This document shows, piece by piece, positions 37,472-54,621 of a stretch of 64,000 nucleotides of DNA. The stretch lies in IMG/VR virus record IMGVR_UViG_3300026472_000003, positions 82,851-146,850 of that record; one strand, given 5' to 3'. Source of the DNA: a virus (taxonomy: Duplodnaviria > Heunggongvirae > Uroviricota > Caudoviricetes). How positions within the stretch are numbered: position 1 is the stretch's first letter; every line of letters starts with the position of its first letter. Position numbers and translations under genes: made by a program. The notes under the pieces are model-generated. The model was not told the DNA's origin. It was given only the letters and a program-made list of their open reading frames with translations, and did no database searches.

Positions 37472-37493
37472 CTCTCCTGCGAGGTTAGATTTT

Positions 37494-37814: not shown

Positions 37815-37890
37815 TGGCAAGGGATCGTGGATTCGAACCACGGAATGCTGATATCAAAGACCAGTGCCTTAACCGCTTGGCTAATCCCTT
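37815..37890 (-). tRNA. tRNA-Gln(UUG)
   Basis: Acceptor AAGGGAU/AUCCCUU, anticodon loop CUUUGAU, T-arm CGUGG-UUCGAAU-CCACG. Confidence 0.65.
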
Positions 37891-37891
37891 A

Positions 37892-37978
37892 TGGCAGGAA
37901 GAACAGGATTCGAACCTGTAGTGGGGTTTCCCCGACGGATTTGGAATCCGTTGCGTTCAGCCATTTCGCTACCTCCCT
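37892..37978 (-). tRNA. tRNA-Trp(CCA) with extended variable arm
   Basis: Acceptor AGGGAGG/UCUUCCU-G (Trp-like 5' A and discriminator G), anticodon arm ACGGA-UUCCAAA-UCCGU, variable region CGGGGAAACCCCACU (hairpin), T-arm ACAGG-UUCGAAU-CCUGU. Confidence 0.5.
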
Positions 37979-37980
37979 AT

Positions 37981-38148
37981 TTACAGCGTATAAAGACGAT
38001 TCAAGAACTCTGCTGTTGGTCGCATACTCTCAGCTTGAGCCAAGAATTGTTTATCCAATGCTTCGAGACGGGCTTTGATTCTTGCCACGTCTTCATCAGT
38101 GAAGACCACGGGCCTTGAAGCAATATCAAGAAGCTCTTCTATTGTCAT
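37981..38148 (-). CDS. small hypothetical protein embedded in tRNA array
   Basis: Coding-like composition. Start chosen at the internal ATG (38148) with GAGGU RBS, because the longer ORF (to 38175) would overlap tRNA-Glu. Confidence 0.35.
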   Translation of the reverse strand: MTIEELLDIASRPVVFTDEDVARIKARLEALDKQFLAQAESMRPTAEFLNRLYTL

Positions 38149-38163
38149 CTTTACCTCGTTGTT

Positions 38164-38239
38164 TGGTACTCTCAACGGGATTCGAACCCGTGTTGTCTGC
38201 GTGAAAGGCAGGTGTCCTGATCCTCTAGACGATAAGAGC
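38164..38239 (-). tRNA. tRNA-Glu(UUC)
   Basis: GUCUAGAGG..CAGGACACC..CCUUUCAC pattern as in E. coli tRNA-Glu. T-arm ACGGG-UUCGAAU-CCCGU. Confidence 0.7.
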
Positions 38240-38453
38240 GTTGTGTTCCACAGGCTTCGGGTCTTTCGGGGTTACTCGTTTGTCTACGCTACTATTAACC
38301 CTTATTTGCGTTTGTGATTTCTCACATGGAGACCTATACAGGTCTGTAGACCTAAGAGCGTTTCTGCCTGAAAATCTTGACTGGATTATTCTCAACGATG
38401 AAGACCAGCCTCAAGCATCGTATAGCAAACATACGGGTTTGCAACCTAAGAGT

Positions 38454-38527
38454 TGGAGCGATTAGGGAGATTCGAACTCCACTCTGCGAGGCTTGGAAGG
38501 CCTGCGACACACCTCGTGCTTAATCGC
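38454..38527 (-). tRNA. tRNA-Gly(UCC)
   Basis: Acceptor GCGAUUA/UAAUCGC perfect, anticodon region GCCUUCCAAGC, ends CGCUCCA, 74 nt. Confidence 0.6.
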
Positions 38528-38533
38528 TGAAAC

Positions 38534-38609
38534 TGGTGGGAGTAGGTGGGTTCGAACCACCGACCTGACGCTTATCGAGCGCCTGCTCTACCGACTGAGC
38601 TATACTCCC
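38534..38609 (-). tRNA. tRNA-Ile(GAU)
   Basis: Canonical tRNA: GGGAGUA UA GCUC AGUCGGUA GAGC A GGCGC UCGAUAA GCGUC .. GGUGG UUCGAAC CCACC UACUCCC A CCA. Confidence 0.8.
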
Positions 38610-38620
38610 TCTGTGTTTGT

Positions 38621-38689
38621 TGCATGAATCAGGACTCGAACCTGAACGGGGGCTTTGCAGTCGTCCCCTGACCCTATTGTCGCTTACGC
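38621..38689 (-). ncRNA. tRNA-like element / degenerate tRNA (no canonical D or anticodon arm)
   Basis: Good T-arm UCAGG-UUCGAGU-CCUGA and a 6/7 acceptor pairing GCGUAAG/UUCAUGC, but the centre is a GGGG-N12-CCCC hairpin and no CCA. Confidence 0.3.
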
Positions 38690-38734
38690 TATCGTCGGCT
38701 CTACGTCTACCCATTCCGTCATTCACACGTCATT

Positions 38735-38816
38735 TGGTGGGGCCACCTGGATTCGAACCAGGGCGTGGTATACCGAATTTACAGTCCGGCGCGTTCGGCC
38801 TCTCCGCCATGTCCCC
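38735..38816 (-). tRNA. tRNA-Tyr(GUA)
   Basis: Class II tRNA, anticodon arm CCGGA-CUGUAAA-UUCGG, T-arm CCUGG-UUCGAAU-CCAGG, acceptor GGGGACA/UGGCCCC. Confidence 0.6.
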
Positions 38817-38823
38817 TTTAACC

Positions 38824-39177
38824 TTATTTGGCGCTTGAGATAGATATGATATCTGTTGTGAACGGCATTACTGCCTTTTCATTCTCAGACGCTTTACCTG
38901 TCTCAGCCACTCTTTCATTCTCTTCTGCGTCATCTTCCGCGTTGTATTGAATGTTGAGTTCTTCGCCTTTCTCAATAACATACTTAGCAATCGCTGCACG
39001 GATGTTATCTTTAGTGCCTGTCGCCATCAACAGATCCTTTATGACTCTGTAGGCATCGGGCATAAGAGCAATCATGTTTGTGTTACCATCCAAAACTGCC
39101 TTCTCTACTGCAATCGCGTTAGACTCTTCTTTGAGTGGTCTACCACGACGTCTTTTAATTGGTGGTTTAACTGCCAT
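38824..39177 (-). CDS. small basic protein (AT-hook-like KRRRGRP N-terminus)
   Basis: 117-aa ORF with GAGG RBS, embedded in the tRNA array. Confidence 0.45.
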   Translation of the reverse strand: MAVKPPIKRRRGRPLKEESNAIAVEKAVLDGNTNMIALMPDAYRVIKDLLMATGTKDNIRAAIAKYVIEKGEELNIQYNAEDDAEENERVAETGKASENEKAVMPFTTDIISISSAK

Positions 39178-39199
39178 ATCCTACCTCTCAATATAAGGA

Positions 39200-39228
39200 A
39201 GATTATCATCTATAATCTTGTTCGTCAA
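39200..39228 (-). promoter_or_regulatory. putative sigma70-like promoter (TTGACG-N17-TAATCT) for the 38824..39177 gene
   Basis: Read on the minus strand: -35 at 39223-39228, -10 at 39200-39205. Confidence 0.3.
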
Positions 39229-39266
39229 GAGGTATTTTATCACAAAACCTTTAAAATTTCAAACTT

Positions 39267-39343
39267 TGGAGCAGGGCATCGGATTTGAACCGATAAACAT
39301 CTCGTTTGCGGCGAGAGCCGTTACCTGATTCCGGCAACCCTGC
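39267..39343 (-). tRNA. tRNA-Cys(GCA) (C33 in anticodon loop)
   Basis: Anticodon arm UCUCG-CCGCAAA-CGAGA, T-arm AUCGG-UUCAAAU-CCGAU, acceptor GCAGGGU/GCCCUGC. Confidence 0.5.
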
Positions 39344-39348
39344 ATGTT

Positions 39349-39425
<77 letters not shown>

Positions 39426-39429
39426 TGTC

Positions 39430-39518
39430 TGGTGCGTCCGGTGGGGGTCGAACCCACAATCCCCGTCAGGGGAGGGAGATTTTAAGTCTCCTGTATATAC
39501 CAATTTCACCACAGACGC
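39430..39518 (-). tRNA. tRNA-Leu(UAA)
   Basis: Class II tRNA, anticodon arm GGAGA-CUUAAAA-UCUCC, long variable arm, acceptor GCGUCUG/CGGACGC. Confidence 0.7.
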
Positions 39519-39964
39519 TAATCATCATTTCTGAAATACTCGACAACAATATTATTCTCTGGTAAACGATCTACCTTGTTGTTTTGGACAGATGCCCCAT
39601 AAGTTCCTGCACATGACCTGCTGCAAAAAGGGCCTGCCTTCTTTCGTGACCTGTTTCTAACCTGCGTCACAGACAATTTGAAAAATGTTCCGCAAAACAC
39701 ACAGTTAGAATGCACATCTTTTCTACGCAGAGCGCTCTTCTCAGAGTTCTCCACTACAGATAGGATTTGAAGATTATCCTCATCTTCGTTGAGGAGGTTT
39801 CTGTCCACATGGTCTACCGTTTCATCGTCAGATAGTTCTCTTCCTAGTTTACTCTCCATCAACTGCCGAGGGTAACTCTTGGTGGTTCTCGAACCATCTT
39901 CCTTAGATAGTACCAATATCCTTCTTCCATCTTTCCTTGTGTACGGCCCGTAAATCTTTTTCAA
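39518..39964 (-). CDS. HNH homing endonuclease
   Basis: 148 aa with ..DHVDRNLLNEDEDNLQILSVVENSEK.. (H-N-N/HNH signature). Abuts the tRNA-Leu 5' end. Confidence 0.6.
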   Translation of the reverse strand: MKKIYGPYTRKDGRRILVLSKEDGSRTTKSYPRQLMESKLGRELSDDETVDHVDRNLLNEDEDNLQILSVVENSEKSALRRKDVHSNCVFCGTFFKLSVTQVRNRSRKKAGPFCSRSCAGTYGASVQNNKVDRLPENNIVVEYFRNDD

Positions 39965-40257
39965 TTGAGCCTCCTACAAAACTCTTAGGTCGGAGGCACC
40001 TGACCACCTTGTCGAAGATTTGATTAAGTGATTCATGAGGTCACCTTGGTCATTTCTCCTATCCCGCTCCCTTCAAGACAGTTTGCAACCTGTCAAGATC
40101 TTCGCTGGAAAGTGCGATACCCCGAACTAAGAGTTCTTTCTGTTTGGAGCCGAGTGGTGGAATCTAACCACCTATGTATGGGCAATGACACTATGGTCGT
40201 TTAACCTTTTTCAGGCCTGGATGGGCCTCGCGGTTGACAAACCGCCTACTCGGCAAT

Positions 40258-40333
40258 TGGAGCTGGTTGCAGGACTTGAACCCGCCACCCCCTGCTTACA
40301 AGGCAGGTGCTCTACCATATGAGCTAAACCAGC
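40258..40333 (-). tRNA. tRNA-Thr(UGU)
   Basis: GCUGGUU UA GCUC AUAUGGUA GAGC A CCUGC CUUGUAA GCAGG .. UUCAAGU .. AACCAGC U CCA. Confidence 0.75.
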
Positions 40334-40740
40334 ATGACATGTTGTCTCCGATAGACGCCTGGAGGTGTGGAGCGGCATATCTTATGACCGACCAGCCTGT
40401 AACCCAGGGTTTGAAGGAACTTTGTTTTTTAAGGCTTCACGTTTGAACTGCTAAACTTTAACCTTTCACACTTGAGGGGAGTTCACAGCCTCCTAAGAGC
40501 CGAAGCGAACTTAACCCGATGAACTTTGAGACATGAACTTTGAAGGTTTTTTCGAATGTATTCGAAACATCTTACGGTTATCATATCAGATAATCACCAT
40601 TATGTGTGTTGAGGTAGTTTAACCTCCAACCTCGATAGAGGTAAGATGTAACCACATCGTGATACCGAAAACAACATGTAAAACTTTAACAGCTTTATTA
40701 AGGAATCACAAGAGGTTATTCAAGGATTCCGTAAATTTTG

Positions 40741-41391
40741 TTACTCTGCCTTAGCAGGTTCCACTTCAATCTCTGTACGAGCGTTAGACTCGGAGAGAGC
40801 GAAGTCAACTTCGGTTAAGAAGTCGTCGATTTCTGTTTCCAGAGCTTCGATAACTGCTGCAAGCCCTGTTGGATCGTACAACGCTGGTTCACCACGTTGA
40901 CGGAGAGGTACAGCGATACCCTCTACTTCATCGCCTTTAGTGGCACGGTCACGACCTAACAGTGTATCCAACTTGCTAGACAAAGCCGCGTCAAATTCAC
41001 TGGAACGCTTGCTGAACTGGATCATCCCCATGTTATACAGCGCTTTCATCTTAGCTAAGAGGCCCTGACGAAGCACAACGCTACGCTTCTGCTCAATTGC
41101 TTGGGCTACAGTGGTCTCTTTACCACCAATGGTGACCAAGGTCACAGCATTTGACTGGATAATCCCAGCTTTCAGCAAGTCACGCATTGTCAGCATATCC
41201 GTAATAGACTGCAATTGAGACTGGGCCTTAGTGGCGAAATCAGTGGCGGTGACGGTTTTACCCGTGAGTTTCAGATAAGTACCTTGTCCTTCGGTCACTG
41301 CGACCAAGTCAAGACGCTCAGTTTGTTTAAGCAGCTTTGCGTCGAGGGACTTCAAAGTTGCCAGAGCACGGGTAATAGACATCTTAGCCAT
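40741..41391 (-). CDS. hypothetical protein
   Basis: 216-aa ORF with GGAG-type RBS, between the two tRNA clusters. Confidence 0.45.
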   Translation of the reverse strand: MAKMSITRALATLKSLDAKLLKQTERLDLVAVTEGQGTYLKLTGKTVTATDFATKAQSQLQSITDMLTMRDLLKAGIIQSNAVTLVTIGGKETTVAQAIEQKRSVVLRQGLLAKMKALYNMGMIQFSKRSSEFDAALSSKLDTLLGRDRATKGDEVEGIAVPLRQRGEPALYDPTGLAAVIEALETEIDDFLTEVDFALSESNARTEIEVEPAKAE

Positions 41392-41468
41392 TGTATTTCT
41401 CCTCTATGGATTTTAATTTTGAGTTTTAAGTTTAGTTCTTGCCGACATCCTTGTCAGCTTTGCAGTTA

Positions 41469-42080
41469 TTACTGCTTGCCAGTCTGAACAACTACCGCAG
41501 CGCGGTTGGCGTCAGCTTTAGCGATTTCCAGACGAGTGTCACGTTCTGCCTTGATCTGGTCACGCAGTTCTGCTACCTGAGCTTCAAGGTCTTTGATTCG
41601 GCTGTCTTTTGCAGTGTTACCCGCGTTCAGTTCAGCAATCGCAATCTTGTGCGTGGATTCCTGTGAGGACAGGCGAGCTTGCAGCTCACGAGCGCTTGAG
41701 GACTGTGCAGCGGCGACAGCAGAGGTAACTGCGTCTTCGTTACTGTCCAGAGCGTTGCTCAGGTCGTTACGGAGCTGAGAAACTTCTTCCGGCTTGATGC
41801 TAACCAGGCCACGAGCTTTCAGAATCGAGTTCACAACTGCGTCTTCGTTTTCCAGCGTCTTGATTTTCAGCACAGATTTAGCTTCTGCAAGTTTTTCGTC
41901 GTACTGAGTTTCGATCTGAGACAGTTCTTTCTGCTTGAACTGGATTTCCTGAGAAATCTGCTCAGATCCTTCTGCCAAGCCCTGTAGCTCAAGGACAACC
42001 TTACTCAGGTTACCTGATGCAGCAGCTACAGCTTTGGTTGCACGTTCGGTTACGGACACTACAGTTTTTACGTCAGACAT
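41469..42080 (-). CDS. coiled-coil hypothetical protein
   Basis: 203 aa, E/Q/A/K-rich heptad character, GAGGGG RBS. Confidence 0.45.
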   Translation of the reverse strand: MSDVKTVVSVTERATKAVAAASGNLSKVVLELQGLAEGSEQISQEIQFKQKELSQIETQYDEKLAEAKSVLKIKTLENEDAVVNSILKARGLVSIKPEEVSQLRNDLSNALDSNEDAVTSAVAAAQSSSARELQARLSSQESTHKIAIAELNAGNTAKDSRIKDLEAQVAELRDQIKAERDTRLEIAKADANRAAVVVQTGKQ

Positions 42081-42107
42081 GTTATTTTCCCCTCTCTAGG
42101 ATTTAAG

Positions 42108-42254
42108 TTAAACGTCCAAGTCGTATTTACGACGGGACTCTTCAATAATTTCTTTGGTAGTCATGGTGTTCTCTTGACCTATCCAGTAATACCAAAGAAA
42201 GATTACTACACTCAATACTGTCATTACCCCGAAGGACACTAACGGCGAAGGCAT
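42108..42254 (-). CDS. small hydrophobic protein (48 aa, not in ORF track)
   Basis: ATG at 42254 preceded by AGGAG. Translation MPSPLVSFGVMTVLSVVIFLWYYWIGQENTMTTKEIIEESRRKYDLDV. Confidence 0.35.
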   Translation of the reverse strand: MPSPLVSFGVMTVLSVVIFLWYYWIGQENTMTTKEIIEESRRKYDLDV

Positions 42255-42339
42255 ATGCACTCCTATTTGTTTTCACGTAAAGCACTTTCGTCCATTTAAG
42301 CTATCACCCTGTGCCATTACGCGAGCCGGGTCAGCAAGA

Positions 42340-42420
42340 CTGGGAGTCGAACCCAGATCTCTCTACATGAAAATTGGCAGTGTACCTCGGGTTCGAACCA
42401 AGACGCTACGAGGAGCTACC
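42340..42420 (-). ncRNA. tRNA-like degenerate element with two T-arm-like motifs
   Basis: Contains CUGGG-UUCGACU-CCCAG and CUUGG-UUCGAAC-CCGAG followed by GUACACU-G-CCA, but no matching 5' acceptor or anticodon arm was found. Confidence 0.25.
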
Positions 42421-42530
42421 TCGTCTGCTGTTGACCTTCGTCCTGCTTTGCCTTTCACCGCATTCCTGCCGCTCGTCAGCCACAATGTTTCGGCTTCCAG
42501 CAAAGAGACTCTTCAACATACACCATAACT

Positions 42531-42606
42531 TGGTGGGATGTACAGGCTTCGAACCTGTGACCTACGGATTAAGAATCCGCCGCTCTACCTACTGGGCTAA
42601 CATCCC
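42531..42606 (-). tRNA. tRNA-Lys(CUU)
   Basis: GGGAUGU UA GCCC AGUAGGUA GAGC G GCGGA UUCUUAA UCCGU .. ACAGG UUCGAAG CCUGU ACAUCCC A CCA. Confidence 0.75.
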
Positions 42607-42777
42607 AAATTTGTGCCAGACCAGTATTTTAAGTCCCCTGTCTGGCGTGAGGGAGACTATCTGCCATTGAGAGGTGACACCTTACTACGACCCTAACGAC
42701 CTGCAACTCCTTCCAATGGTTGGCTCATGCACTCGTTAGCGCCGATTCAGGACAATCCTTCTCGACAGCAAATCAGG

Positions 42778-43119
42778 TTACTTTTTCTTTTTGGAAGAAC
42801 CTTTAGATTCTACCGCCTTCGCTTCGACCTTAGTCTCACGAGACTTACTCAGGCGCTCACGCTTAGTTTTGCCTGTTCGGATACGATGAGAAACAGAAAT
42901 TACCTGACCACCTTCAACACTTGTCTTCGACTCCCAGAGGTAAACTACGTTACCGTCTTCGTCACGTCCTTTCTTGCGAACAGAAACCGTCTTGGTTGTA
43001 CCGCCAAGACGAAGGTCTTTAGCAGGTGAAGAAGTCTGTGTTGACTTCGAGTCAAAAGAGAAAGGCTGCTTAATCGCGTCGATTGCAGAGACTTTCTTAG
43101 CAGTGTTTTTCTTAGCCAT
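42778..43119 (-). CDS. small lysine-rich basic protein
   Basis: 113 aa, K/S/T-rich with a KKKK C-terminus, AGGAGA RBS. Confidence 0.45.
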   Translation of the reverse strand: MAKKNTAKKVSAIDAIKQPFSFDSKSTQTSSPAKDLRLGGTTKTVSVRKKGRDEDGNVVYLWESKTSVEGGQVISVSHRIRTGKTKRERLSKSRETKVEAKAVESKGSSKKKK

Positions 43120-43241
43120 CTTATGTTTCTCCTATTTGGATTATTTTATCTAACGTTTTGTTTTCTTTGTGTCTTTCAATGTCGGTAAGAGTAATCTCTT
43201 TTCTTCTCATTGTCAACACTTATTTTAAATCTTTTTTTGTT

Positions 43242-43318
43242 TGGTGGCCCATGCCGGACTCGAACCGACAACCGAGCGATTATGAGTCGCTTGCTCTAAC
43301 CAATTGAGCTAAAGGGCC
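43242..43318 (-). tRNA. tRNA-Met(CAU), elongator or Ile2-type
   Basis: GGCCCUU UA GCUC AAUUGGUUA GAGC A AGCGA CUCAUAA UCGCU .. UCGG-UUCGAGU-CCGGC AUGGGCC A CCA. Confidence 0.65.
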
Positions 43319-44582: not shown

Positions 44583-44615
44583 AAAAGCCCCAAGAAGGGG
44601 CTTTATTTATTTTTC
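44583..44615. terminator. bidirectional rho-independent terminator after the NAMPT-like gene
   Basis: GCCCC-AAGAA-GGGGC stem flanked by T-runs on both strands. Confidence 0.55.
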
Positions 44616-44620
44616 AAAAA

Positions 44621-46384
44621 TTATTTCAGTAATCGTTCACGAATGGCTGTCAACGTTGTCTGATTAAACAACTTACCATTACGGAAGATTATTTGCAACT
44701 GATTATCCTCATCAGCCACCTCATGGAGGCCAAGCCCATCAATCAGTTGGTACACACCATCCGCCCCGAGAACAACCTTCAAGAAACCATTCGCAGATTT
44801 TTTCTTCATGTCTGTTTTCGGTTCTTTTGTCACCAGGATTTCATCACCACCGATGATGGAGCCAGTTGCTTTACATGCGAAACCTAAACTGTCGCGGGTG
44901 CTGTAGTTGTAGGTATAAGACCCGATGCCGAAAACGATGTTGCTTGAAGCATAACCACGTTCTTTCAGGCGAATCAGAATGTCTTCCGCACGTTGCAGCG
45001 TGATGCTGTCACCGTAGATCAGGCCGATATGTGAATCCAGAACACGGAAGCCTTTGCTGTTAACAGTTCCGCCGAAGGTTTCCCATAGGCATTCGATTGT
45101 GCCAAGAACTTCGTGACGTTTCAAGCTAGTGGCTTCACCCTTCTCACCGTAATAAACCCCATCTTCTTCAATGAGTTCCGCACCGCTGACCTTGAAGATG
45201 GTTTCAATATCACTTGGCGTGAAGTCAGAAACTTTTTCAATCTCTTCAATGTCCGCAAGATTTGACTCAAGAACCTCTGCCCAGCCGAGACGCCCTTCTT
45301 CGTACTCTGCACGGAGGTACGCTTTAGCAGCTTCAACTGAAATGACACGGTAGCCTGCAATGATACGCACTGGGTCACCAGAATCTGGACGAATAACCAG
45401 CTTGCCTTCACGGGCCATGATTTCATCTTTCAGTTCCGGCAACATTGCCAGGATAACTGCCCAGTAATCATAACTGTCTGAAACATATGAGCAATATCCG
45501 TCAGGATAAATTTCAGTCGCATACTTCTCCAGGAATACCAGCTCTGCTGCATAACGAAGCTCATCCAGAGTGGCATCTTTAAATCCTGGGTCTTTCAGAA
45601 GATTTTTAATAATCTTTCCGATATTCGTCGTCGCAACACTGTGTTCTGATGCTGGAATTGAACCCGCAACGAATTTATGAGCCATCCCATAGTAACGACG
45701 AGCATAACGGATTGCCGGAATGGTGTCCGTGCCGTAGAACGAAGTTAAATGTGCAATACCGTTTTTGTATGCATCAGCAATGCCAGACAATCCACGGAAA
45801 CTGAAATCATGACACTGGAACATTAAGTGGTCTAATGCATCACAGGTCTGATCCGCAAAATCACGGCACAGTTTGTAATACTGGTGTGCGATTGTTGCAT
45901 TGTTCATGACCTTCCAGGTTTCAGCCGACAGCGCCGTCTCAAAATAGTTTGTCAACCAGAAGAAACGAGAATCTGTGTTGTGGATAGTATAAACAGGAAC
46001 CTGAACTGGGGCCAATGAACCCTCCGGCAGGCAACGCATTTCTAAAGGTAAATAACCCAAGTCATGCAGAGCTTCGATATGCTCAGTGCGGATTTTTTCC
46101 TGAGGGATGCCCAAAGACAACCACAACTCTTCAACGTATTCACCGATAACCTGTTCTTTCGGTTGAGCGAAGAATTGCTCATTCCAATACTCAACTAAAA
46201 AGTTGATTGCAACACCCTGGACGCCAGCGACCACAACACGATGGTCTGAACCATAGAAGTGAGGGAAAAGTTTTTCAGATCGCGGGGTGAAGTTAGAGAA
46301 AATAACTTCACTTGCTTGGTTGTACTGATCAGCATGTGATGGTTTGTAGAAATCGGTTGCGAACAGCGGGTTCATCTTGATCAT
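44621..46384 (-). CDS. nicotinamide phosphoribosyltransferase (NAMPT/NadV)-like protein
   Basis: 587 aa. N-terminus NPLFATDFYKPSHADQY matches the NAMPT start (NILLATDSYKVTHYKQY). Confidence 0.65.
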   Translation of the reverse strand: MIKMNPLFATDFYKPSHADQYNQASEVIFSNFTPRSEKLFPHFYGSDHRVVVAGVQGVAINFLVEYWNEQFFAQPKEQVIGEYVEELWLSLGIPQEKIRTEHIEALHDLGYLPLEMRCLPEGSLAPVQVPVYTIHNTDSRFFWLTNYFETALSAETWKVMNNATIAHQYYKLCRDFADQTCDALDHLMFQCHDFSFRGLSGIADAYKNGIAHLTSFYGTDTIPAIRYARRYYGMAHKFVAGSIPASEHSVATTNIGKIIKNLLKDPGFKDATLDELRYAAELVFLEKYATEIYPDGYCSYVSDSYDYWAVILAMLPELKDEIMAREGKLVIRPDSGDPVRIIAGYRVISVEAAKAYLRAEYEEGRLGWAEVLESNLADIEEIEKVSDFTPSDIETIFKVSGAELIEEDGVYYGEKGEATSLKRHEVLGTIECLWETFGGTVNSKGFRVLDSHIGLIYGDSITLQRAEDILIRLKERGYASSNIVFGIGSYTYNYSTRDSLGFACKATGSIIGGDEILVTKEPKTDMKKKSANGFLKVVLGADGVYQLIDGLGLHEVADEDNQLQIIFRNGKLFNQTTLTAIRERLLK

Positions 46385-46441
46385 TTAAAATCTCTCCTGG
46401 TTATTTTGTGGGGTGATTGTACACCCCGTTTTATTTTGATG

Positions 46442-46969
46442 TCAAGAACAAAGTTCTAAACTGCTTGATGTCTCAACGATTGTTTTTGTTTCTGTTACCA
46501 ATCTGCAACCCTTGACAACAATGGTGCTCTCTTCTTTTGACCAAGAGCGCGGTCTCTTTTTGAAAGACTTTGCACGAAAAATCAAGAAATTAATCACGTT
46601 GTCTGGTGGCGTTTCGGAGAAGAAGATCGCCACACTCTCATAAGCAGGGCATTTAAAAGGCATCTCTTCGGTAACATCGTAATGCAGACCGCGACCATTG
46701 TTAGACCTTCCAGGCGTGGGCCAAATGGTTGTTGGTCGGTCGCACCCACCGTCTGACTGCTGCAATGTGAAATTATCTAACCAATCACAGATGGCATCGA
46801 TGTCAGAGTCAGGATATTCCTTCTTCAAATCTTCCCGTTCAGGAATGTACTCTTTTCCAGCCTCACACTCACCAATCTGCCCAGTGATGTGAGCACACAT
46901 CTCCCGTTCAAAGTTGCCTGAGTAAGAATCTGTGTCAACAACAAAGATAATACGCTTTGATTCAGTCAT
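46442..46969 (-). CDS. hypothetical protein between the PRS-like and NAMPT-like genes
   Basis: 175 aa, Cys/Asp-rich N-terminus. Confidence 0.4.
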   Translation of the reverse strand: MTESKRIIFVVDTDSYSGNFEREMCAHITGQIGECEAGKEYIPEREDLKKEYPDSDIDAICDWLDNFTLQQSDGGCDRPTTIWPTPGRSNNGRGLHYDVTEEMPFKCPAYESVAIFFSETPPDNVINFLIFRAKSFKKRPRSWSKEESTIVVKGCRLVTETKTIVETSSSLELCS

Positions 46970-47805
46970 TAAAAATTCTCCGTCCAGTCATGGTAAGCAT
47001 AAATTTCATCCACACCACCGTCGAGGATAACTTGTTTCCCAAAGGAGAAAATCCCGTGGGTAACATACAGTATTACACGTTTTGCACCTTTGGCTTTCAG
47101 CGCTTGGGCCAGTGCGATAAAGGTACGACCACCGTCACAGATATCATCCACGATAAGGCACTCTTTACCTTCGACATCACCAAACACCGCAGTGCCTGTG
47201 ATTTCACCTGTAGCCAGGTCACGGATTTTTCCTGCCTCAACAATTGGAAGTCGGTTGCTGTCTGCTACACCTTGTGCCTTCTTACGAGCGCCAGCGTCCG
47301 GTGCAACAACAACGACATCACGAGCGAAGAGGCCGACACCGAGGGTTGGACTGTTTTTAACAATCAGACTATTCAGCTCACGAACCAATTCCTTCTGCCC
47401 ACGGATTCGGATTTTGTTGATAAGGGCCTCTGACACATGGCTGTGTGGGTCATCAACAACAACTTTATCAAAGCCGAGGGAGTTGATGATATTCGCAAAA
47501 ACTTTAATGGATAAGGATTCACCTGGTTGCATCACTCGGTCTTGTCGAGCATAAGGGATGTACGGGAGGTTCAGAACGAACTCCGCGTTGGTGTCCAGAT
47601 TCTCCAGACGTGAACATGCATCAACCAGCAATGCTAGTGTCATAACGTCAACAGATGTCTTGATTTTGGCTGTGATTTCCACAAAACCGATACGCCCGTG
47701 CGGCGCATGTGCCAAGTCAATCTTAACCTGCTCTTCTCCACCCTTGAAAGTGAAGTGCTCAACTGGAACCACGAGATTGTTCAGTTGTAATTTTACGTTA
47801 CTCAT
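46969..47805 (-). CDS. ribose-phosphate pyrophosphokinase (PRPP synthetase)-like protein
   Basis: PYIPYARQDR and DDICDGGRT motifs of the Prs family. Confidence 0.7.
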   Translation of the reverse strand: MSNVKLQLNNLVVPVEHFTFKGGEEQVKIDLAHAPHGRIGFVEITAKIKTSVDVMTLALLVDACSRLENLDTNAEFVLNLPYIPYARQDRVMQPGESLSIKVFANIINSLGFDKVVVDDPHSHVSEALINKIRIRGQKELVRELNSLIVKNSPTLGVGLFARDVVVVAPDAGARKKAQGVADSNRLPIVEAGKIRDLATGEITGTAVFGDVEGKECLIVDDICDGGRTFIALAQALKAKGAKRVILYVTHGIFSFGKQVILDGGVDEIYAYHDWTENF

Positions 47806-48191
47806 TTTGAGTCTCCTCTGTTCATGATTATAAAGTGCCGTGGCTTCGCGTTCCCGCTGGAATCAACAAAGCCCGACTTGATTCTTGTAATGTAGCCAAA
47901 ATCTTCCATTTTCTTTAAGAACTCAGAAACCTTCGGCTGTAGCTTCTCACTCAGACCAAACAGTTGGCAAAGAGATTTCTGTGATGGGAAAAACACATAG
48001 TCACCTGCGTCCTTGTTGATACTCTTGAAGTAATCATATCGCCACCAAAGTTTCATGAGCCTCTGCAAGTCCAAAGGAGTGAGTCGGCTATCAAACACCC
48101 AAGAAGTGGGAACAGTAAGGTATGACCCTTCCCGCACCGACACGGTGCTTTCTCCCAGTTTGATCTCCACCACTTTCTCCCCTTGGTTCAC
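47802..48191 (-). CDS. putative winged-helix DNA-binding protein (first gene of minus-strand operon)
   Basis: C-terminal LSEKLQPKVSEFLKKMEDFGYITRIK resembles a wHTH. GTG start, close to a TTGACA-N18-TAGTAT promoter. Confidence 0.35.
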   Translation of the reverse strand: MNQGEKVVEIKLGESTVSVREGSYLTVPTSWVFDSRLTPLDLQRLMKLWWRYDYFKSINKDAGDYVFFPSQKSLCQLFGLSEKLQPKVSEFLKKMEDFGYITRIKSGFVDSSGNAKPRHFIIMNRGDSK

Positions 48192-48201
48192 AATGTGGAG
48201 G

Positions 48202-48231
48202 ATACTAACCCACCCAAATCCTTCTTGTCAA
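48202..48231 (-). promoter_or_regulatory. sigma70-like promoter TTGACA-N18-TAGTAT for the minus-strand operon
   Basis: -35 revcomp at 48226-48231, -10 revcomp at 48202-48207. Confidence 0.4.
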
Positions 48232-48240
48232 CACCTCTCC

Positions 48241-48285
48241 TAATTATACCCAAAAAAGTATGTCTAATTATACCCAAAAAAGTAT
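48241..48285. repeat. two perfect 21-bp direct repeats TAATTATACCCAAAAAAGTAT (24-bp period)
   Basis: Copies at 48241-48261 and 48265-48285, just upstream of the -35 of the leftward promoter. Confidence 0.8.
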
Positions 48286-48331
48286 ACAATACTAACTTAT
48301 GATCTAAACTAACTTATAAAACATAAAAACA

Positions 48332-49428: not shown

Positions 49429-49667
49429 AAAGCCTGAATAAATTATACCGTCGGTACAACAAGTTAAAAGCAAAACGGGCTGGTGTCGTTCAAGCATTCG
49501 TTGTTAGTAAAGAGGCAATGAAGCAAAATCGAATAACCCCTTGCCAGAGAGACTTGATACGCAAGTGGTTGGGGCCTTCTGTTGAAGAAATGGACGCAGA
49601 GATAAGAAATCTGAAAGGAAAAATCTCTGTAAAATTAGGAGAAATACATGCTTCATATAACATCTGA
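49425..49667 (+). CDS. hypothetical protein
   Basis: 80 aa. Confidence 0.4.
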   Translation: MKSLNKLYRRYNKLKAKRAGVVQAFVVSKEAMKQNRITPCQRDLIRKWLGPSVEEMDAEIRNLKGKISVKLGEIHASYNI

Positions 49668-50223
49668 CACCCACGATTCACATAAGAACATCCTGGGTTT
49701 CCCTTCCTGCAACAAGTTCCGTTATGACCTGTATGGGCCGAAGGAAGACCCTGAGAGTGTTGTCCGAATGAACGAAGGGATAGTTAAAATCTGGAACCAG
49801 CACGTCTCCCCACAAGATACTGTGTATCACTTGGGGGATGTGAGTTTGGCCTATGGCAAGAAGTCCATTGAGGCTCTCCATCGGTTTTTAAGTTCTGTGA
49901 ATGGAAAGATAACCCTCCTTCGGGGGAATCACGACCATAAAGAAACACGGAAGATGTTTGAAATGTTTGGTCACGAGGTTAAGGACTACCTTGAGATTGA
50001 GTTTGAGAAAGTCAAGGTGTGTATGTCCCACTACCCATTTGCGTCGTGGAATAAAGCTCACCACGGGTCGGTGATGTTGCATGGGCATAGCCACGGGTCT
50101 TACACGGCACCAGGCGGCAGAATATTGGATGTTGGTTGGGATGTTCATGGAAGACCATTAACCATGAAAGAGGCAGTTGACATCTGCCTGAAAAAGCCTG
50201 TATTCTCTACTGACCATCACTAA
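49648..50223 (+). CDS. calcineurin-like metallophosphoesterase
   Basis: Motifs DTHDSH, GDVSLAYG, GNHDHKE, HGHSHG. AGGAGA RBS. Confidence 0.65.
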   Translation: MLHITSDTHDSHKNILGFPSCNKFRYDLYGPKEDPESVVRMNEGIVKIWNQHVSPQDTVYHLGDVSLAYGKKSIEALHRFLSSVNGKITLLRGNHDHKETRKMFEMFGHEVKDYLEIEFEKVKVCMSHYPFASWNKAHHGSVMLHGHSHGSYTAPGGRILDVGWDVHGRPLTMKEAVDICLKKPVFSTDHH

Positions 50224-50235
50224 ATAAGGATTATC

Positions 50236-51162
50236 GTGGAAAAGTTCAATGTAGATGACTTAATAGCCAAAGGCCTTGTTCGTGCAAAGACTTACACCGA
50301 GGGCCAGTTCTCTGGCTTACGTGTGTTGAAGTATCACGGGCGTGTTTTTTGGGACAATATGTGGAAGCAAGACCCGCGATTGAAGGAGTGTCGTGGGATT
50401 GTTGTTGACCAAGATGATAACGTAATACTGCACCCGTTCACCAAAATCTTCAACCGTGGTGAAAACAAAACGGATCTTGCAATGGATCGCGTTGTTATCG
50501 AAGTGGAGAAGATAAACGGCTTCATGGCTGGGGCCACTGTATACAAAGGGAAGTGGTTAGTTTCGACGACTGGTACATTGGATTCTGACTATGCACGACT
50601 GGCGGAGGAAGTTATCCAGTTCTATAATCCATATCCGTCTCTTGACATTGGTTATACGCAAGAAGGGGCGATGTGGCGATCTTTGGATTTAATGTTTGAG
50701 ATTTGTCATCCATCAGACCCACACATCGTTGAGCAAGAGCCGGGGGCCTATTTGATAGGCGCTCGGTGCAGAGGTACAGGGAGAATGCTCTCTGAATCAG
50801 CACTGGACGGTATCTGCCCTGTTGGATGGAAACGTCCAGCTTGGCGCAAGTGTCTCTTTGCAGACACCGTAGAGGCCGCTAAATCATGCAAACATGAAGG
50901 CTTCGTGGTTCGTGATGTTGATTCTGGTGAACTTCTGCTGAAAATAAAGTCACCACACTACTTGGCGAAGAAATTCTTCATGCGTGGTGGGATTAAGAAG
51001 TGCGACTTAATCTGGGATACGGATCGTGTGAAGAAGTCGGTGGATGAAGAATACTACCCACTTCTCGACTACATCCGAGCAAATTATACAAAAGAGGCCT
51101 GGCTGGCCCTGCAAGAGCAGGAGCGCCGCCTGAAAATAGAGGCTTATTTGGAGGGAGATTGA
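50236..51162 (+). CDS. RNA ligase-like nucleotidyltransferase
   Basis: Motif I EKINGF (KxNG), motif IV EGFVV, motif V LLKIKSP. Confidence 0.5.
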   Translation: MEKFNVDDLIAKGLVRAKTYTEGQFSGLRVLKYHGRVFWDNMWKQDPRLKECRGIVVDQDDNVILHPFTKIFNRGENKTDLAMDRVVIEVEKINGFMAGATVYKGKWLVSTTGTLDSDYARLAEEVIQFYNPYPSLDIGYTQEGAMWRSLDLMFEICHPSDPHIVEQEPGAYLIGARCRGTGRMLSESALDGICPVGWKRPAWRKCLFADTVEAAKSCKHEGFVVRDVDSGELLLKIKSPHYLAKKFFMRGGIKKCDLIWDTDRVKKSVDEEYYPLLDYIRANYTKEAWLALQEQERRLKIEAYLEGD

Positions 51163-52069: not shown

Positions 52070-52280
52070 TAGCGGATTGAGCGAGCTGGGGAAGGCTTTC
52101 ATAAGAGATAACCCACCACTCCTTTCCCTTCTTTACGATGCAAACATACTGCCGGAGGTGGTTGTGACTTTACAGAACCCTGCAAGACGTGCAACTCTGC
52201 TGGTGGCTGTTGTGGCATATGCACTCGGGAAGGGGCATGAAGACCCGAACACATTACTTAAACCTCAGGAGACAGCTTAA
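52053..52280 (+). CDS. hypothetical protein
   Basis: 75 aa. Confidence 0.35.
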   Translation: MDMAFDSGLSELGKAFIRDNPPLLSLLYDANILPEVVVTLQNPARRATLLVAVVAYALGKGHEDPNTLLKPQETA

Positions 52281-53128
52281 TGCGTCGATTAATAGTTATC
52301 TCTGGTGCTGGTCTGTCCGCTGAAAGCGGGATCAGAACCTTCCGCACTGACGAAGTGTCAGGGAAATCATTGTGGGACGAGTACAACCTTGAAGAGGTTT
52401 GTAACGTTCACGGGTTTAATACTGGTTACACATACCGTAATGACCCATTCCCTCCGCTGGCAGCACTGTCCGAGGAGACTGAGACATCACCATCTCAGAA
52501 TCTTTATCGTCTGACGCATGATTTTTATAATAAACGGCGGGTTGAGTTGCAGACTGTTGAACCGAATGCAGCACACAACGCAATCGCTGATTGGCACCGC
52601 CGTTTCCCTGGTAAGGTGATTAACCTGACCACAAACGTGGATGACCTTCTCGAACGTGCAGGGGTTGACCGTGATGATGTAATCCACGTTCACGGATACC
52701 TGCCAGAGGTGAAAATTCAGGAAAAAGAAGGCGGGAGTAAAAAGACAATCGATATTGGTTATTCTGAGATCAACCCTGACGATCATCACTGGGCCAAGCC
52801 AAATGTTGTATTCTTCCACGAGAATGCACCGCTGTATGCTGACCTGTATGACCTTATTGATTCTTTGACGAGTCAAGACTTGGTTATCATTGTTGGTTGC
52901 TCGAATATTGTAATCGATTTTGACCGTTTACTTTATTCCCCAATCATGAAAGGGACGAAGTGTATTGTTGTGAACCCACGAATCAGTGAGGCCGATACGA
53001 CATTGTACACCTCTTACGGGATTGCATATTTCCAGACAGGGGCGGTCAGCGCCTTTAGCAATCCAAACCTTGTCAAGGTGGTTGAGGATCACTTAGAGGG
53101 CCTGACATGTCTCCAAGCGAAATCTTAA
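52280..53128 (+). CDS. Sir2-like (sirtuin-fold) protein lacking the zinc ribbon
   Basis: GAGLSAESGIRTFR (NAD-binding GAGISxxSGIPxFR), TTNVDDLLERAG, catalytic HG in IHVHGYL. No CxxC pairs. Confidence 0.7.
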   Translation: MRRLIVISGAGLSAESGIRTFRTDEVSGKSLWDEYNLEEVCNVHGFNTGYTYRNDPFPPLAALSEETETSPSQNLYRLTHDFYNKRRVELQTVEPNAAHNAIADWHRRFPGKVINLTTNVDDLLERAGVDRDDVIHVHGYLPEVKIQEKEGGSKKTIDIGYSEINPDDHHWAKPNVVFFHENAPLYADLYDLIDSLTSQDLVIIVGCSNIVIDFDRLLYSPIMKGTKCIVVNPRISEADTTLYTSYGIAYFQTGAVSAFSNPNLVKVVEDHLEGLTCLQAKS

Positions 53129-53313: not shown

Positions 53314-54621
53314 ATGAGTATCAGCTTAGACACTCCGGTGCTTTTTGCATTGAACAAAGATGCATCCTTCCAGAAATGGAAGGTGTTCACGGAGGGGGAT
53401 GAGGTTGTTGTCGAGTTCGGTAAGCTCGGCGGAAAAATGCAACAAAAACGCACCAAATGTGAGATGAAGAATGTCGGTCGGGCTAACCAGACGGATGCCG
53501 ACTTCCAAGCTCTGTTAGAAGCTCGATCTAAATGGGAAAAACAGGTTCGTCTTGGCTATCGGGAAAGTGTTGAGCTGTTAACGCTGGAGGAGAATCTCTC
53601 CACGATGCTGGCCCATGATTACCTGAAAAAACCGAATGCCATTGTTCTACCTTGCTATACTCAACCAAAACTAGATGGTGTCCGTGCTCTGGTTCTGTAT
53701 ACGGACGGTGTTCCAGTATTTAATAGTCGTGGCAATAAGACATATCCTGTCCAGGGTAAACTTATTTCTCAAATGACTCGCTTGGCAAACGAAACAGGGT
53801 TTGACAAATTCGATGGGGAGCTGTACATTCATGGCTTGAGTTTGCAGAAGATTTCTGCCCTGGCGAAGAAGTGGCGGAGCCACGAGATGATTGCGGAAGA
53901 AATCCAGAAGGATTACGAAGCAGACATCAAGCGCCGGAACAAGGCAATAGCCGCAGGGGAAGAGAAATACAAAAACTTCGACGACGTTCTGTTCAGCGTG
54001 GATGTTGAGCCAGTTAAAGATGTTGACCGCTACAAAGGTTATTGCAGCTTCGACTTGCAGTTCCACATCTTTGATATTCCAGTGAACAAAAATAGTGTCT
54101 GGTGTGATAATGAAAAAGCTCCAGCATTCTGCCGCCTAGCGGACTTGATTGAAGTGGACACCGTGGTGGGTGTTAAAGAATCAGGGTATAGCCACATCCA
54201 TACTGTACTGGGTAGTTTTTGCCATACTCTGGAAGAAGTGAAGACCACCGTTGGTGTTAACATGCAAAGCGGCTACGAAGGATCGATGATTCGAAACTTC
54301 AAGGGTGTTTATGAGTTCGGACAGCGGTCTTCTGACCTTCTGAAATGGAAGATATTCCAGACAGCAGAGGCCAAAGTGAAGGACTCAAAAGAGGATAAGA
54401 ACGGTGAAGGTGTTCTGGACTGCGTGGAGCAAGACGGGACTGAGTTTAGCTGTAAGATGAAAGGGACTCATGCTGAGAGAACCCAGTCAAACATGCTGAA
54501 ACTCAAAGGCCAGTTCATTACCTTTAGTTTCCAAGCGCGTACCGATGCGGGTGTTCCGCAGTTCCCAGTGGGGATTTGTGTACGTGAAGTTAATCCAACA
54601 ACATGGGAGCCTATTTACTAA
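53314..54621 (+). CDS. ATP-dependent DNA ligase
   Basis: Motif I PKLDGVRAL (KxDG). Confidence 0.7.
   Translation: MSISLDTPVLFALNKDASFQKWKVFTEGDEVVVEFGKLGGKMQQKRTKCEMKNVGRANQTDADFQALLEARSKWEKQVRLGYRESVELLTLEENLSTMLAHDYLKKPNAIVLPCYTQPKLDGVRALVLYTDGVPVFNSRGNKTYPVQGKLISQMTRLANETGFDKFDGELYIHGLSLQKISALAKKWRSHEMIAEEIQKDYEADIKRRNKAIAAGEEKYKNFDDVLFSVDVEPVKDVDRYKGYCSFDLQFHIFDIPVNKNSVWCDNEKAPAFCRLADLIEVDTVVGVKESGYSHIHTVLGSFCHTLEEVKTTVGVNMQSGYEGSMIRNFKGVYEFGQRSSDLLKWKIFQTAEAKVKDSKEDKNGEGVLDCVEQDGTEFSCKMKGTHAERTQSNMLKLKGQFITFSFQARTDAGVPQFPVGICVREVNPTTWEPIY

What the first reader, a model, noticed from the sequence alone, without database searches (positions are those of the whole stretch)
44621..47805. 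NAMPT-like + PRPP-synthetase-like gene pair: candidate phage NAD+ reconstitution (NARP1-type) counter-defence module
A 587-aa NAMPT-family protein and a 278-aa Prs-family protein (PYxxYARQDR, DDICDGGRT) are co-transcribed with a 175-aa unknown between them. Phage homologues of exactly these two families have been reported to rebuild NAD+ from ADP-ribose and nicotinamide (Adps + Namat, NARP1) and so defeat NAD-depleting immunity such as Thoeris, DSR, SIR2-HerA and some CBASS. Whether this Prs-like enzyme makes ADPR-PP rather than PRPP cannot be told from sequence alone. The 175-aa protein is uncharacterised and may be a third component.
Basis: partly seen in the sequence, partly recalled or inferred. 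Interest (0 to 1): 0.7.

Follow-up and report, generated by a model that had tools for sequence, protein, structure and literature searches.

The report
Phage NAD+-rebuilding operon with inserted unknown gene
This phage carries the already-described two-enzyme NARP1 pathway that rebuilds NAD+ to beat NAD-depleting bacterial immunity, and the only unexplained part is a conserved phage-only gene of unknown function wedged between the two enzymes.

Summary
The three minus-strand genes exist exactly as described. Sequence evidence identifies the outer two as Adps and Namat, the two NARP1 enzymes. The 587-aa protein matches the SPbetaL1 Namat crystal sequences at 404 bits, against about 162 bits for human NAMPT. 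It carries the published Namat adenine-clamp motif (GSYTYNYSTRD) and all catalytic-core residues. The 278-aa protein fails every genuine-Prs cut-off. It scores like the validated Bas63 Adps and shares Adps-specific loop motifs, including the catalytic lysine. Its 74-77% identical relatives in phages 4MG and GAP31 are already listed in the NARP1 paper's tables, with the same three-gene layout. So the pair is a new member of a known system.

The 175-aa middle protein is neither of the two known NARP1 accessories (Macro phosphatase Adpp, RyR-domain RyDEP). It belongs to a large family found only on phage or phage-like metagenomic contigs (1,733 clusters). The family has no Pfam model. The structure model is confident, with a ferredoxin-like core and no solved or annotated close relative. 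The family lies within 6 kb of NAD/ADPR-metabolism genes in 11 of 49 independent loci, and next to NARP1 in only two lineages. A role as third component is possible but unproven.

The parts
46969..47805 (-). Adps-like gene (278 aa), predicted ADP-ribose pyrophosphokinase and first enzyme of NARP1
   Evidence: It belongs to the Prs family. Its NCBIfam scores mirror validated Bas63 Adps and not E. coli Prs. It is 37% identical (159 bits) to Bas63 gp79 and 74-77% identical to the 4MG and GAP31 proteins listed in Osterman Supplementary Table 1.
47194..47232 (-). Adps catalytic flexible loop GKIRDLATGEITG (aa 192-204), with K193 aligned to SPbetaL1 Adps K162
   Evidence: In the alignment, the pattern K-x-R-[DN]-x-x-[TS]-G-x-I is shared by SPbetaL1, Bas63 and L048 Adps. 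Prs has KRRPRAN at this position.
47119..47148 (-). DDICDGGRTF (aa 220-229), an altered ribose-5-phosphate loop
   Evidence: It is identical in Bas63 Adps and L048 Adps. E. coli Prs has DDMIDTGGT.
46442..46969 (-). 175-aa gene of unknown function (phrog_23621 family), inserted between Adps and Namat
44621..46384 (-). Namat-like gene (587 aa), predicted nicotinamide ADP-ribose transferase and second enzyme of NARP1
   Evidence: Best PDB matches are 9w5x and 9w5w (SPbetaL1 Namat numbering) at 404 bits, against about 162 bits for human NAMPT. It is 42% identical (429 bits) to Bas63 gp80 and 77% identical to Hena1 gp091, which is listed as 'Adps-associated'.
44891..44923 (-). Namat selectivity-clamp helix motif GSYTYNYSTRD (aa 488-498)
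   Evidence: [quoted passage not shown] Motifs are compared.
45083..45355 (-). Variable insertion of about 80 aa in Namat (roughly aa 344-427), relative to the crystallised SPbetaL1 enzyme
   Evidence: The HMMER alignment splits here. The insertion is also present, with divergent sequence, in Bas63 gp80, 4MG and Hena1.
47802..48191 (-). Upstream 129-aa gene (phrog_8453, weak DnaD-like or replication-initiator similarity), translationally coupled to Adps. Context only, not part of NARP1.
   Evidence: PHROG hits are.
48202..48231 (-). Promoter-like site upstream of the four-gene block
   Evidence: TTGACA-18-TAGTAT, 10 of 12 positions. It lies in the divergent intergenic region. This is a consensus match only.
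46416..46445 (-). Internal promoter-like site in the spacer between the middle gene and Namat, with its -10 element inside a GGGGTG/CACCCC hairpin
   Evidence: TTGACA-18-TACAAT, 11 of 12 positions. This is a consensus match only.
44584..44604 (.). GC-rich hairpin 17 nt downstream of the Namat stop codon, a likely terminator
   Evidence: AAAGCCCC-loop-GGGGCTTT.

Best explanation
The locus is a NARP1 (NAD+ reconstitution pathway 1) counter-defence operon in a Vequintavirinae-like myovirus.

Proposed mechanism, inferred by homology to the published pathway:
1. A host SIR2, TIR or SEFIR effector cleaves NAD+ into ADP-ribose and nicotinamide.
2. The 278-aa Adps uses ATP to pyrophosphorylate ADP-ribose, giving ADPR-PP.
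3. [quoted passage not shown]

Shown here by sequence: family membership, the Adps and Namat discriminating motifs, gene linkage, and the absence of an NMNAT partner in the window. Not shown here: the chemistry and the anti-defence phenotype.

The 175-aa gene between the two enzymes is not a known NARP1 accessory. It is best described as a phage-specific protein built on a ferredoxin-like core. Its invariant polar residues suggest that it binds or processes a small molecule. Its link to NARP1 is lineage-specific. I put about one chance in three on it acting on an NAD-derived metabolite in support of NAD+ reconstitution.
For: Namat:
- It scores 404 bits against the SPbetaL1 Namat crystal sequences. 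It scores 187 bits against a bacterial 'Pre-B cell enhancing factor related protein' (7yqo) and about 162 bits against human NAMPT.
- In that alignment, residues D13', Y15', F189, R192, D215, the catalytic His, R306 and D308 are conserved.
- The clamp motif is GSYTYNYSTRD. SPbetaL1 has GSFTYQYNTRD and Bas63 has GSYTYQYMTRD.

Adps:
- NCBIfam PRK01259 scores are 120 bits for the window protein and 101 for validated Bas63 Adps. E. coli Prs scores 533 against a cut-off of 297.
- It scores 159 bits against Bas63 Adps and 89 bits against E. coli Prs.
- It shares DPHS, PDAGA, the K-x-R-[DN]-x-x-[TS]-G-x-I loop and loss of the DTGGT threonine with both validated Adps enzymes. K193 aligns with SPbetaL1 K162.

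Linkage and context:
- The two genes are on one strand, two genes apart, with overlapping stop and start codons.
- Close relatives in 4MG, GAP31 and Hena1 are listed as Adps homologues with 'Namat within 10 genes: Yes', and as 'Adps-associated' Namat homologues.
- No NMNAT, Macro or phage-G gp334-like (NUDIX-annotated) homologue was found in the window.

Middle gene:
- The family has invariant Y16, G18, N19, F20, E21, R22 and S112.
- 11 of 49 dereplicated loci have an NAD/ADPR gene within 6 kb, and the count falls with distance: 8, 6 and 3 loci in the 0-2, 2-4 and 4-6 kb bins.
- Accessory genes inserted at this same position are known (Adpp; RyDEP).
Against: - No biochemistry or genetics was done for this phage or for any Vequintavirinae NARP1.
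- Against the one biochemically characterised Adps (SPbetaL1), the window protein scores only 89 bits, the same as against E. coli Prs. The Adps call therefore rests on motifs, on Bas63 and on published tables.
- The clamp-loop arginine (SPbetaL1 R40) aligns with K38 in a loop 5 residues longer.
- Namat enzymes can still make NMN from PRPP in vitro, so some conventional salvage activity is not excluded.
- For the middle gene, 38 of 49 loci have no NAD gene within 6 kb, and none of the 14 MAG loci has one.
- The closest Namat relative, in Hena1, has no such gene.
- The distance decay is not statistically significant with these numbers, and no matched control set was available.
Confidence: 0.85

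Rival explanations
1. This is conventional nucleotide and NAD salvage, as the database names say. The 278-aa protein would be a true PRPP synthetase and the 587-aa protein a true NAMPT making NMN. Host NadR or PncC, or a phage NMNAT elsewhere in the genome, would finish NAD+ synthesis (a NARP2-like route).
For: - Both proteins pass broad family thresholds named for those activities.
- Namat retains NMN-forming activity with PRPP in vitro.
- Only 64 kb of a genome of roughly 147 kb was searched for an NMNAT.
Against: - The Prs-like protein is far below every Prs equivalog cut-off and lacks the DTGGT ribose-5-phosphate loop and the Prs C-terminus.
- The Namat clamp motif, which the structural study reports is absent from Nampt, is present.
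- In Bas63, a homologous pair still countered SIR2-HerA without host pncC and nadR.
- SPbetaL1 Adps gave no product in the assay for Prs activity.
Confidence: 0.06
2. The 175-aa gene is a genuine third component, a new kind of NARP accessory. It would convert or capture an NAD-derived molecule that core NARP1 cannot use, feeding or protecting NAD+ reconstitution as Adpp and RyDEP do. Candidate molecules include a phosphorylated or cyclic ADPR species, an NADP-derived product, or an immune signal.
For: - It sits between Adps and Namat and its start overlaps the Adps stop. This is where the phosphatase Adpp lies in Vibrio phage Gary's three-gene operon, and RyDEP is likewise inserted within the DyoEdafos NARP1 operon.
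- It associates independently with NARP1 plus Macro in an unrelated contig (L048).
- It also associates with Nampt plus NMNAT islands (L056, L026), NAD kinase (L007, L019, L024), KptA (L003) and the phage G NUDIX-annotated gene (L065).
- The family is strongly conserved with invariant polar residues and is found only on phage or phage-like contigs.
Against: - Most family members are nowhere near NAD genes.
- The association spans chemically different pathways, so no single substrate is implied.
- No fold or motif ties it to nucleotide chemistry.
- Hena1-type operons function, by inference, without it.
- Large phage genomes cluster accessory genes anyway, which inflates co-location.
Confidence: 0.3
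3. The 175-aa gene is an unrelated passenger. It would be a mobile phage accessory gene that landed in a recombination-prone junction of the operon and works in some other process.
For: - The operon is mosaic around it. Adps is 74-77% identical to Seunavirus, the middle gene 59%, and Namat 77% identical to Henunavirus but only 50% to Seunavirus.
- A separate promoter-like site follows it.
- About 78% of family loci lack NAD genes nearby.
- Its other recurrent neighbours are a metallophosphoesterase, radical-SAM-like proteins and Thg1-like proteins.
Against: - It is retained between the two enzymes in all 12 Seunavirus-type records at 57-59% identity, which means it has been kept over substantial divergence.
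- It recurs next to NAD modules in unrelated lineages.
Confidence: 0.55

Closest known systems
NARP1 of Escherichia phage Bas63 (genes 79-80) and Bacillus phage SPbetaL1 (genes 190-191), described by Osterman et al. (bioRxiv 10.1101/2024.02.11.579819)
   Same: - The same two protein families appear in the same order on one strand.
- The window Adps is 37% identical to Bas63 Adps and shares its loop motifs.
- The window Namat is 42% identical to Bas63 Namat, including the long insertion, and has the same clamp motif.
   Different: - In Bas63 and SPbetaL1 the two genes are adjacent, whereas here a 175-aa gene separates them.
- No experimental data exist for this lineage.
Seunavirus phages 4MG and GAP31 (Vequintavirinae)
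   Same: - They show identical four-gene synteny: replication-initiator-like gene, Adps, a 177-aa unknown gene, then Namat.
- Adps is 74-77% identical and the middle gene 58-59% identical.
- These phages are already listed among NARP1 carriers.
   Different: - Their Namat is only about 50% identical to the window's.
- The window's Namat is instead 77% identical to Henunavirus (Hena1, pEp_SNUABM_01), which lacks the middle gene.
NARP1-AP (Adps, Macro-domain phosphatase Adpp, Namat) of Vibrio phage Gary (bioRxiv 10.64898/2026.01.28.702374)
   Same: It has a three-gene layout with an extra gene between Adps and Namat.
RyDEP (RyR-domain cADPR glycosidase or sponge) inserted in the NARP1 operon of mycobacteriophage DyoEdafos (bioRxiv 10.64898/2026.05.28.727677)
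   Same: An accessory gene is inserted inside a NARP1 operon.
   Different: RyDEP belongs to Pfam PF02026, and its ligand pocket is formed by four central helices. The window protein has no PF02026 hit and is a mixed alpha/beta ferredoxin-like fold.

Membership tests
NARP1 | A Prs-family protein that is not a genuine PRPP synthetase (Adps subfamily) | tested here: met
   - PRK01259 scores 120 bits against a cut-off of 297, and all Prs equivalog models are failed. Bas63 Adps scores 101 and E. coli Prs scores 533.
- Adps-type motifs are shared with SPbetaL1 and Bas63 Adps.
NARP1 | Adps catalytic lysine (SPbetaL1 K162) | tested here: met
   K193 aligns with K162 in the MAFFT alignment.
NARP1 | A Namat homologue within 10 genes of the Adps gene | tested here: met
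   It lies two genes downstream on the same strand. This criterion comes from Osterman et al..
NARP1 | [quoted passage not shown] | tested here: met
   GSYTYNYSTRD at aa 488-498.
NARP1 | Namat clamp-loop arginine (SPbetaL1 R40) | tested here: inconclusive
   It aligns with K38 in a loop 5 residues longer. The paper describes this loop as variable.
NARP1 | Conserved Nampt-like catalytic core (D13', Y15', F189, R192, D215, catalytic His, R306, D308) | tested here: met
   All are conserved in the alignment to 9w5x. The window equivalents of R306 and D308 are R332 and D334.
NARP1 | The enzymes convert ADPR plus ATP to ADPR-PP, and ADPR-PP plus nicotinamide to NAD+ | not testable with these tools
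   This requires purified proteins and LC-MS.
NARP1 | The pathway rescues the phage from NAD-depleting defences | not testable with these tools
   This requires deletion mutants and plaque assays.
NARP2 (Nampt plus NMNAT) | An NMN adenylyltransferase partner encoded nearby | tested here: not met
   No hit in the six-frame translation of the window to two phage NMNAT queries at E <= 0.01. Only the 64-kb window was searched.
Genuine PRPP synthetase (Prs) | Passes a curated Prs equivalog or subfamily cut-off and has the DTGGT ribose-5-phosphate loop | tested here: not met
   It scores 74-120 bits against cut-offs of 296-536. The loop reads DGGRT.
NARP1-AP accessory Adpp | The middle protein is a Macro domain | tested here: not met
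RyDEP | The middle protein has an RyR (PF02026) domain with a ligand pocket formed by four central helices | tested here: not met

The most novel reading that the evidence does not exclude
The 175-aa protein founds a third class of NARP accessory. It would be a phage-only enzyme or sponge with a ferredoxin-like core that handles an NAD-derived molecule not yet considered in this arms race. Examples are a product of NADP+ cleavage, an ADPR cyclic phosphate, or a new immune signal. This would extend NAD+ reconstitution to defences that core NARP1 cannot counter. Its wide spread (1,733 clusters, mostly in large phages) would then mark a common and unrecognised counter-defence function.
Probability: 0.25. 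Interest if true: 0.75.

Novelty: new member of a known kind. Interest (0 to 1): 0.38.

Why it matters
The Adps and Namat pair adds one more phage lineage to a pathway already reported in about 4% of phages. On its own it changes little. It is useful mainly for correct annotation, because databases still call these genes Prs and NAMPT.

The practical value lies in the middle gene. Both accessory genes so far found inside NARP1 operons (Adpp and RyDEP) turned out to answer a specific host countermeasure. An uncharacterised, strongly conserved, phage-only family in a comparable position is therefore a cheap and well-defined candidate for the next such discovery. It has close cultured relatives in 4MG and GAP31 on E. 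coli K-12 and Cronobacter, and a confident structure model.

Tried and rejected
- **Middle protein as RyDEP or Adpp.** Rejected. It has no PF02026 or Macro hit, and its fold is a ferredoxin-like alpha/beta fold.
- **Informative domain fusions.** The 373-aa member P0093 and other long members gave no Pfam domain above threshold.
- **Obligate linkage of the middle family to NARP1.** Rejected. Only the Seunavirus loci and L048 have Adps and Namat nearby, among 49 dereplicated loci.
- **Presence in bacterial genomes.** There were only 14 hits, all on MAG contigs. One has the same length and coordinate range as IMG/VR viral contig L035, and none has NAD neighbours.
- **Literature search for the family.** Nothing was found in the NARP1, NARP1-AP, RyDEP or NARP3 papers, or in the Iyer/Aravind survey of NAD-ADPr systems.
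- **Pairwise score as an Adps test.** This failed for SPbetaL1 Adps, which scores 89 bits, equal to E. coli Prs. Motifs and Bas63 were used instead.
- **Near-identical phage genome.** None exists in the phage collection. The best DNA matches are about 78% identical over patches of about 450 nt.
Full report
**Observation**

The ORF list shows three minus-strand ORFs at exactly the reported coordinates:
- 46969-47805 (278 aa)
- 46442-46969 (175 aa)
- 44621-46384 (587 aa)

A fourth gene (47802-48191, 129 aa) lies directly upstream. Its stop overlaps the 278-aa start by 4 nt (ATGA), and the 278-aa stop overlaps the 175-aa start by 1 nt (TAATG).

A 57-nt spacer precedes the 587-aa gene. It contains a good Shine-Dalgarno sequence and a sigma70-like match, TTGACA-18-TACAAT, whose -10 element sits inside a short GC hairpin. 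A GC-rich hairpin follows the last stop codon. A promoter-like cluster lies in the divergent region at 48200-48310. Co-transcription is therefore plausible, possibly with an extra internal promoter, but these are consensus matches only.

**Genome context**

The window is a large myovirus related to Vequintavirinae.
- It has 20 tRNA genes just downstream.
- Its synteny matches Seunavirus 4MG and Henunavirus Hena1.
- No record in the phage collection is close at DNA level. The best matches are about 78% identical over short patches.

**The 587-aa protein is a Namat**

It belongs to the NAPRTase/NAMPT family. The table shows its solved-structure matches.

| PDB match | Bits |
|---|---|
| 9w5x / 9w5w | 404 |
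| 7yqo, a bacterial 'Pre-B cell enhancing factor related protein' | 187 |
| Human NAMPT | about 162 |

The residue numbering of 9w5x and 9w5w matches the SPbetaL1 Namat described in PMC12774641 (D13, Y15, R40, R306, G390-D400).

[quoted passage not shown] It reports that the motif is absent from Nampt. The table compares the motif across Namat homologues.

| Protein | Motif |
|---|---|
| Window (aa 488-498) | GSYTYNYSTRD |
| SPbetaL1 | GSFTYQYNTRD |
| Bas63 | GSYTYQYMTRD |

All nicotinamide- and ribose-phosphate-binding residues are conserved in the alignment. The clamp-loop arginine aligns with a lysine in a longer loop, in an element the authors call variable.

The protein is about 95 residues longer than the crystallised enzyme. 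Most of the difference is one insertion of about 80 residues. That insertion is also present in the in-vivo-validated Bas63 Namat (593 aa).

**The 278-aa protein is an Adps**

It has the Prs domain set but fails every curated Prs model except the broad TIGR01251. The validated Bas63 Adps behaves the same way, and E. coli Prs passes easily.

| Protein | PRK01259 bits (cut-off 297) |
|---|---|
| Window protein | 120 |
| Bas63 Adps | 101 |
| E. coli Prs | 533 |

It is 37% identical (159 bits) to Bas63 Adps and 29% identical (89 bits) to E. coli Prs. Against the biochemically characterised SPbetaL1 Adps it also scores only 89 bits, so pairwise score alone does not settle the question.

The alignment, however, shows motifs shared by all Adps sequences examined and absent from both Prs sequences.

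| Position | Adps | Prs |
|---|---|---|
| Motif 1 | DPHS | DLHA |
| Motif 2 | PDAGA | PDIGG |
| Flexible loop | K-x-R-[DN]-x-x-[TS]-G-x-I | KRRPRAN |
| Ribose-5-phosphate loop | threonine lost; DDICDGGRTF in the window protein, identical in Bas63 | DTGGT |

The mutated catalytic K162 of SPbetaL1 aligns with K193 here. The C-terminal ~40 residues of Prs are missing.

The supplementary tables of the NARP1 paper list the 4MG, GAP31 and Hena1 homologues among Adps homologues with 'Namat within 10 genes: Yes', and among 'Adps-associated' Namat homologues. These are 74-77% identical to the window Adps or Namat. In 4MG the listed genes are numbers 112 and 114, so the intervening gene was in that dataset but was not discussed.

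**Alternatives for the pair**

A NARP2-type reading needs an NMNAT. None is found in the window, nor any Macro, NAD kinase, KptA or phage-G gp334-like homologue. The conventional Prs plus NAMPT reading is contradicted by the failed Prs tests and the clamp motif. It also conflicts with published results on homologues: Bas63 still countered SIR2-HerA without host pncC and nadR, and SPbetaL1 Adps gave no product in the assay for Prs activity. I therefore place the pair in NARP1 with about 0.85 confidence. The chemistry and the phenotype are inferred, not shown.

**The 175-aa protein**

- It has no Pfam, NCBIfam or PDB sequence match and belongs to PHROG 23621, of unknown function.
- A word-indexed search found 91 clusters, none named. 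A full profile search found 1,733 representatives at the 50% identity level.
- The alignment shows invariant Y16, G18, N19, F20, E21, R22 and S112. Nearly invariant residues include D12, T13, E23, C35, R78, H96 and R132. These fall in the motifs DTDxYSGNFERE, CxRPxxIWPTPGRxNNGxGxH and PAYESVAIF.
- AlphaFold2 gives a very confident model (pLDDT 95.7) with a beta-alpha-beta core and a conserved insert.
- It is therefore neither the Macro phosphatase Adpp nor the RyR-domain RyDEP, the two accessories already found inside NARP1 operons.
- Among 185,579 species genomes it appears only on 14 MAG contigs. One of these has the same length and coordinate range as IMG/VR viral contig L035. By this evidence the family is phage-specific.

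**Is the 175-aa protein a third component?**

All 12 Seunavirus-type records keep it between Adps and Namat at 57-59% identity. Henunavirus Hena1, which has the closest Namat, carries only a 30-codon ORF at that position.

The operon is mosaic around it.

| Gene | Identity to Seunavirus | Identity to Henunavirus |
|---|---|---|
| Adps | 74-77% | 59% |
| Middle gene | about 59% | absent |
| Namat | about 50% | 77% |

Across 49 dereplicated viral loci, only the Seunavirus lineage and one unrelated contig (L048) place the family near NARP1. L048 carries Adps, a Macro gene and Namat. Nine further loci hold other NAD or ADPR genes:
- Nampt plus NMNAT in L056 and L026. L056 also has Macro, sirtuin, NADAR-like and Prs genes.
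- NMNAT-like genes in L010 and L063.
- NAD kinase in L007, L019 and L024.
- KptA in L003.
- The NUDIX-annotated gp334 of phage G in L065.

In total, 11 of 49 loci have such a gene within 6 kb. The number of loci falls with distance: 8, 6 and 3 in the 0-2, 2-4 and 4-6 kb bins. The numbers are small, I had no matched control family, and the 14 MAG loci add no cases. Other recurrent neighbours are a metallophosphoesterase, radical-SAM-like proteins and Thg1-like proteins.

My reading is that the family has a real but loose affinity for NAD-related accessory regions, which is compatible with action on an NAD-derived small molecule. The data do not show that it is a NARP1 component. I give about 0.3 to a functional accessory role and about 0.55 to an unrelated passenger.

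**Verdict**

The NARP1 pair is a new member of a known system, whose nearest relatives are already catalogued. The residual interest is the uncharacterised, phage-only gene family embedded in the operon. It is a well-defined experimental lead but not yet a finding.

Noticed in passing
window 52280-53128 (+): A phage Sir2-like gene annotated as NAD-dependent deacetylase (phrog_2162, E 3.6e-94) lies about 4.5 kb from the NARP1 operon. This is an NAD-consuming enzyme encoded by a phage that also rebuilds NAD+. A homologous fragment is visible at the edge of the 4MG locus L009.
   Followed up: partly
window 34952-43318 (-): A cluster of 20 tRNA genes lies immediately downstream of the operon on the same strand. 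It includes two tRNA-Met, three tRNA-Ser and two tRNA-Leu.
   Followed up: no
window 49648-51162 (+): A calcineurin-like metallophosphoesterase (phrog_547) is followed by an Rnl1-type RNA ligase, in synteny with 4MG and Hena1. Homologues of this phosphoesterase also lie within 4 kb of the 175-aa family in 5 of 49 dereplicated loci.
   Followed up: partly
window ~48240-48287 (-): Two tandem copies of a 22-nt element (atacttttttgggtataattag), each containing TATAAT, sit in the divergent intergenic region upstream of the four-gene block. They may be duplicated phage early promoters.
   Followed up: no
window 46408-46445 (-): In the spacer before Namat, the near-consensus promoter match has its -10 hexamer in the loop of a GGGGTG/CACCCC hairpin. 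Read on the opposite strand, the same hairpin scores as a terminator. Its function is unknown.
   Followed up: no
window 45083-45355 (-), Namat aa ~344-427: An insertion of about 80 residues is shared in position with Bas63, 4MG and Hena1 Namat but is highly divergent in sequence. It is absent from the crystallised SPbetaL1 enzyme, and its role is unknown.
   Followed up: partly
window 44621-47805: The operon is mosaic. Adps and the middle gene are closest to Seunavirus, while Namat is 77% identical to Henunavirus and only about 50% to Seunavirus. This implies recombination near the spacer between the middle gene and Namat.
   Followed up: partly
L056 (IMGVR_UViG_3300033984_000473, 233 kb), positions 900-12310: This locus is a dense NAD/ADPR island in an uncultured large phage. 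It holds NMNAT, Nampt, a member of the 175-aa family, a NADAR-like gene, a phage-G gp334-like gene, a Macro gene, a sirtuin and a Prs-like gene.
   Followed up: partly
whole window: No phage record is close at DNA level (best about 78% identity over patches of about 450 nt), so the window probably comes from an undescribed Vequintavirinae-like species or genus. A 98%-identical copy of the 175-aa protein (P0001) exists on a 5-kb Logan contig.
   Followed up: no
window 53314-56182 (+): An ATP-dependent DNA ligase and two MazG-like or nucleotide-pyrophosphohydrolase-like genes follow the Sir2-like gene. Together they form a nucleotide-metabolism and repair block.
   Followed up: no
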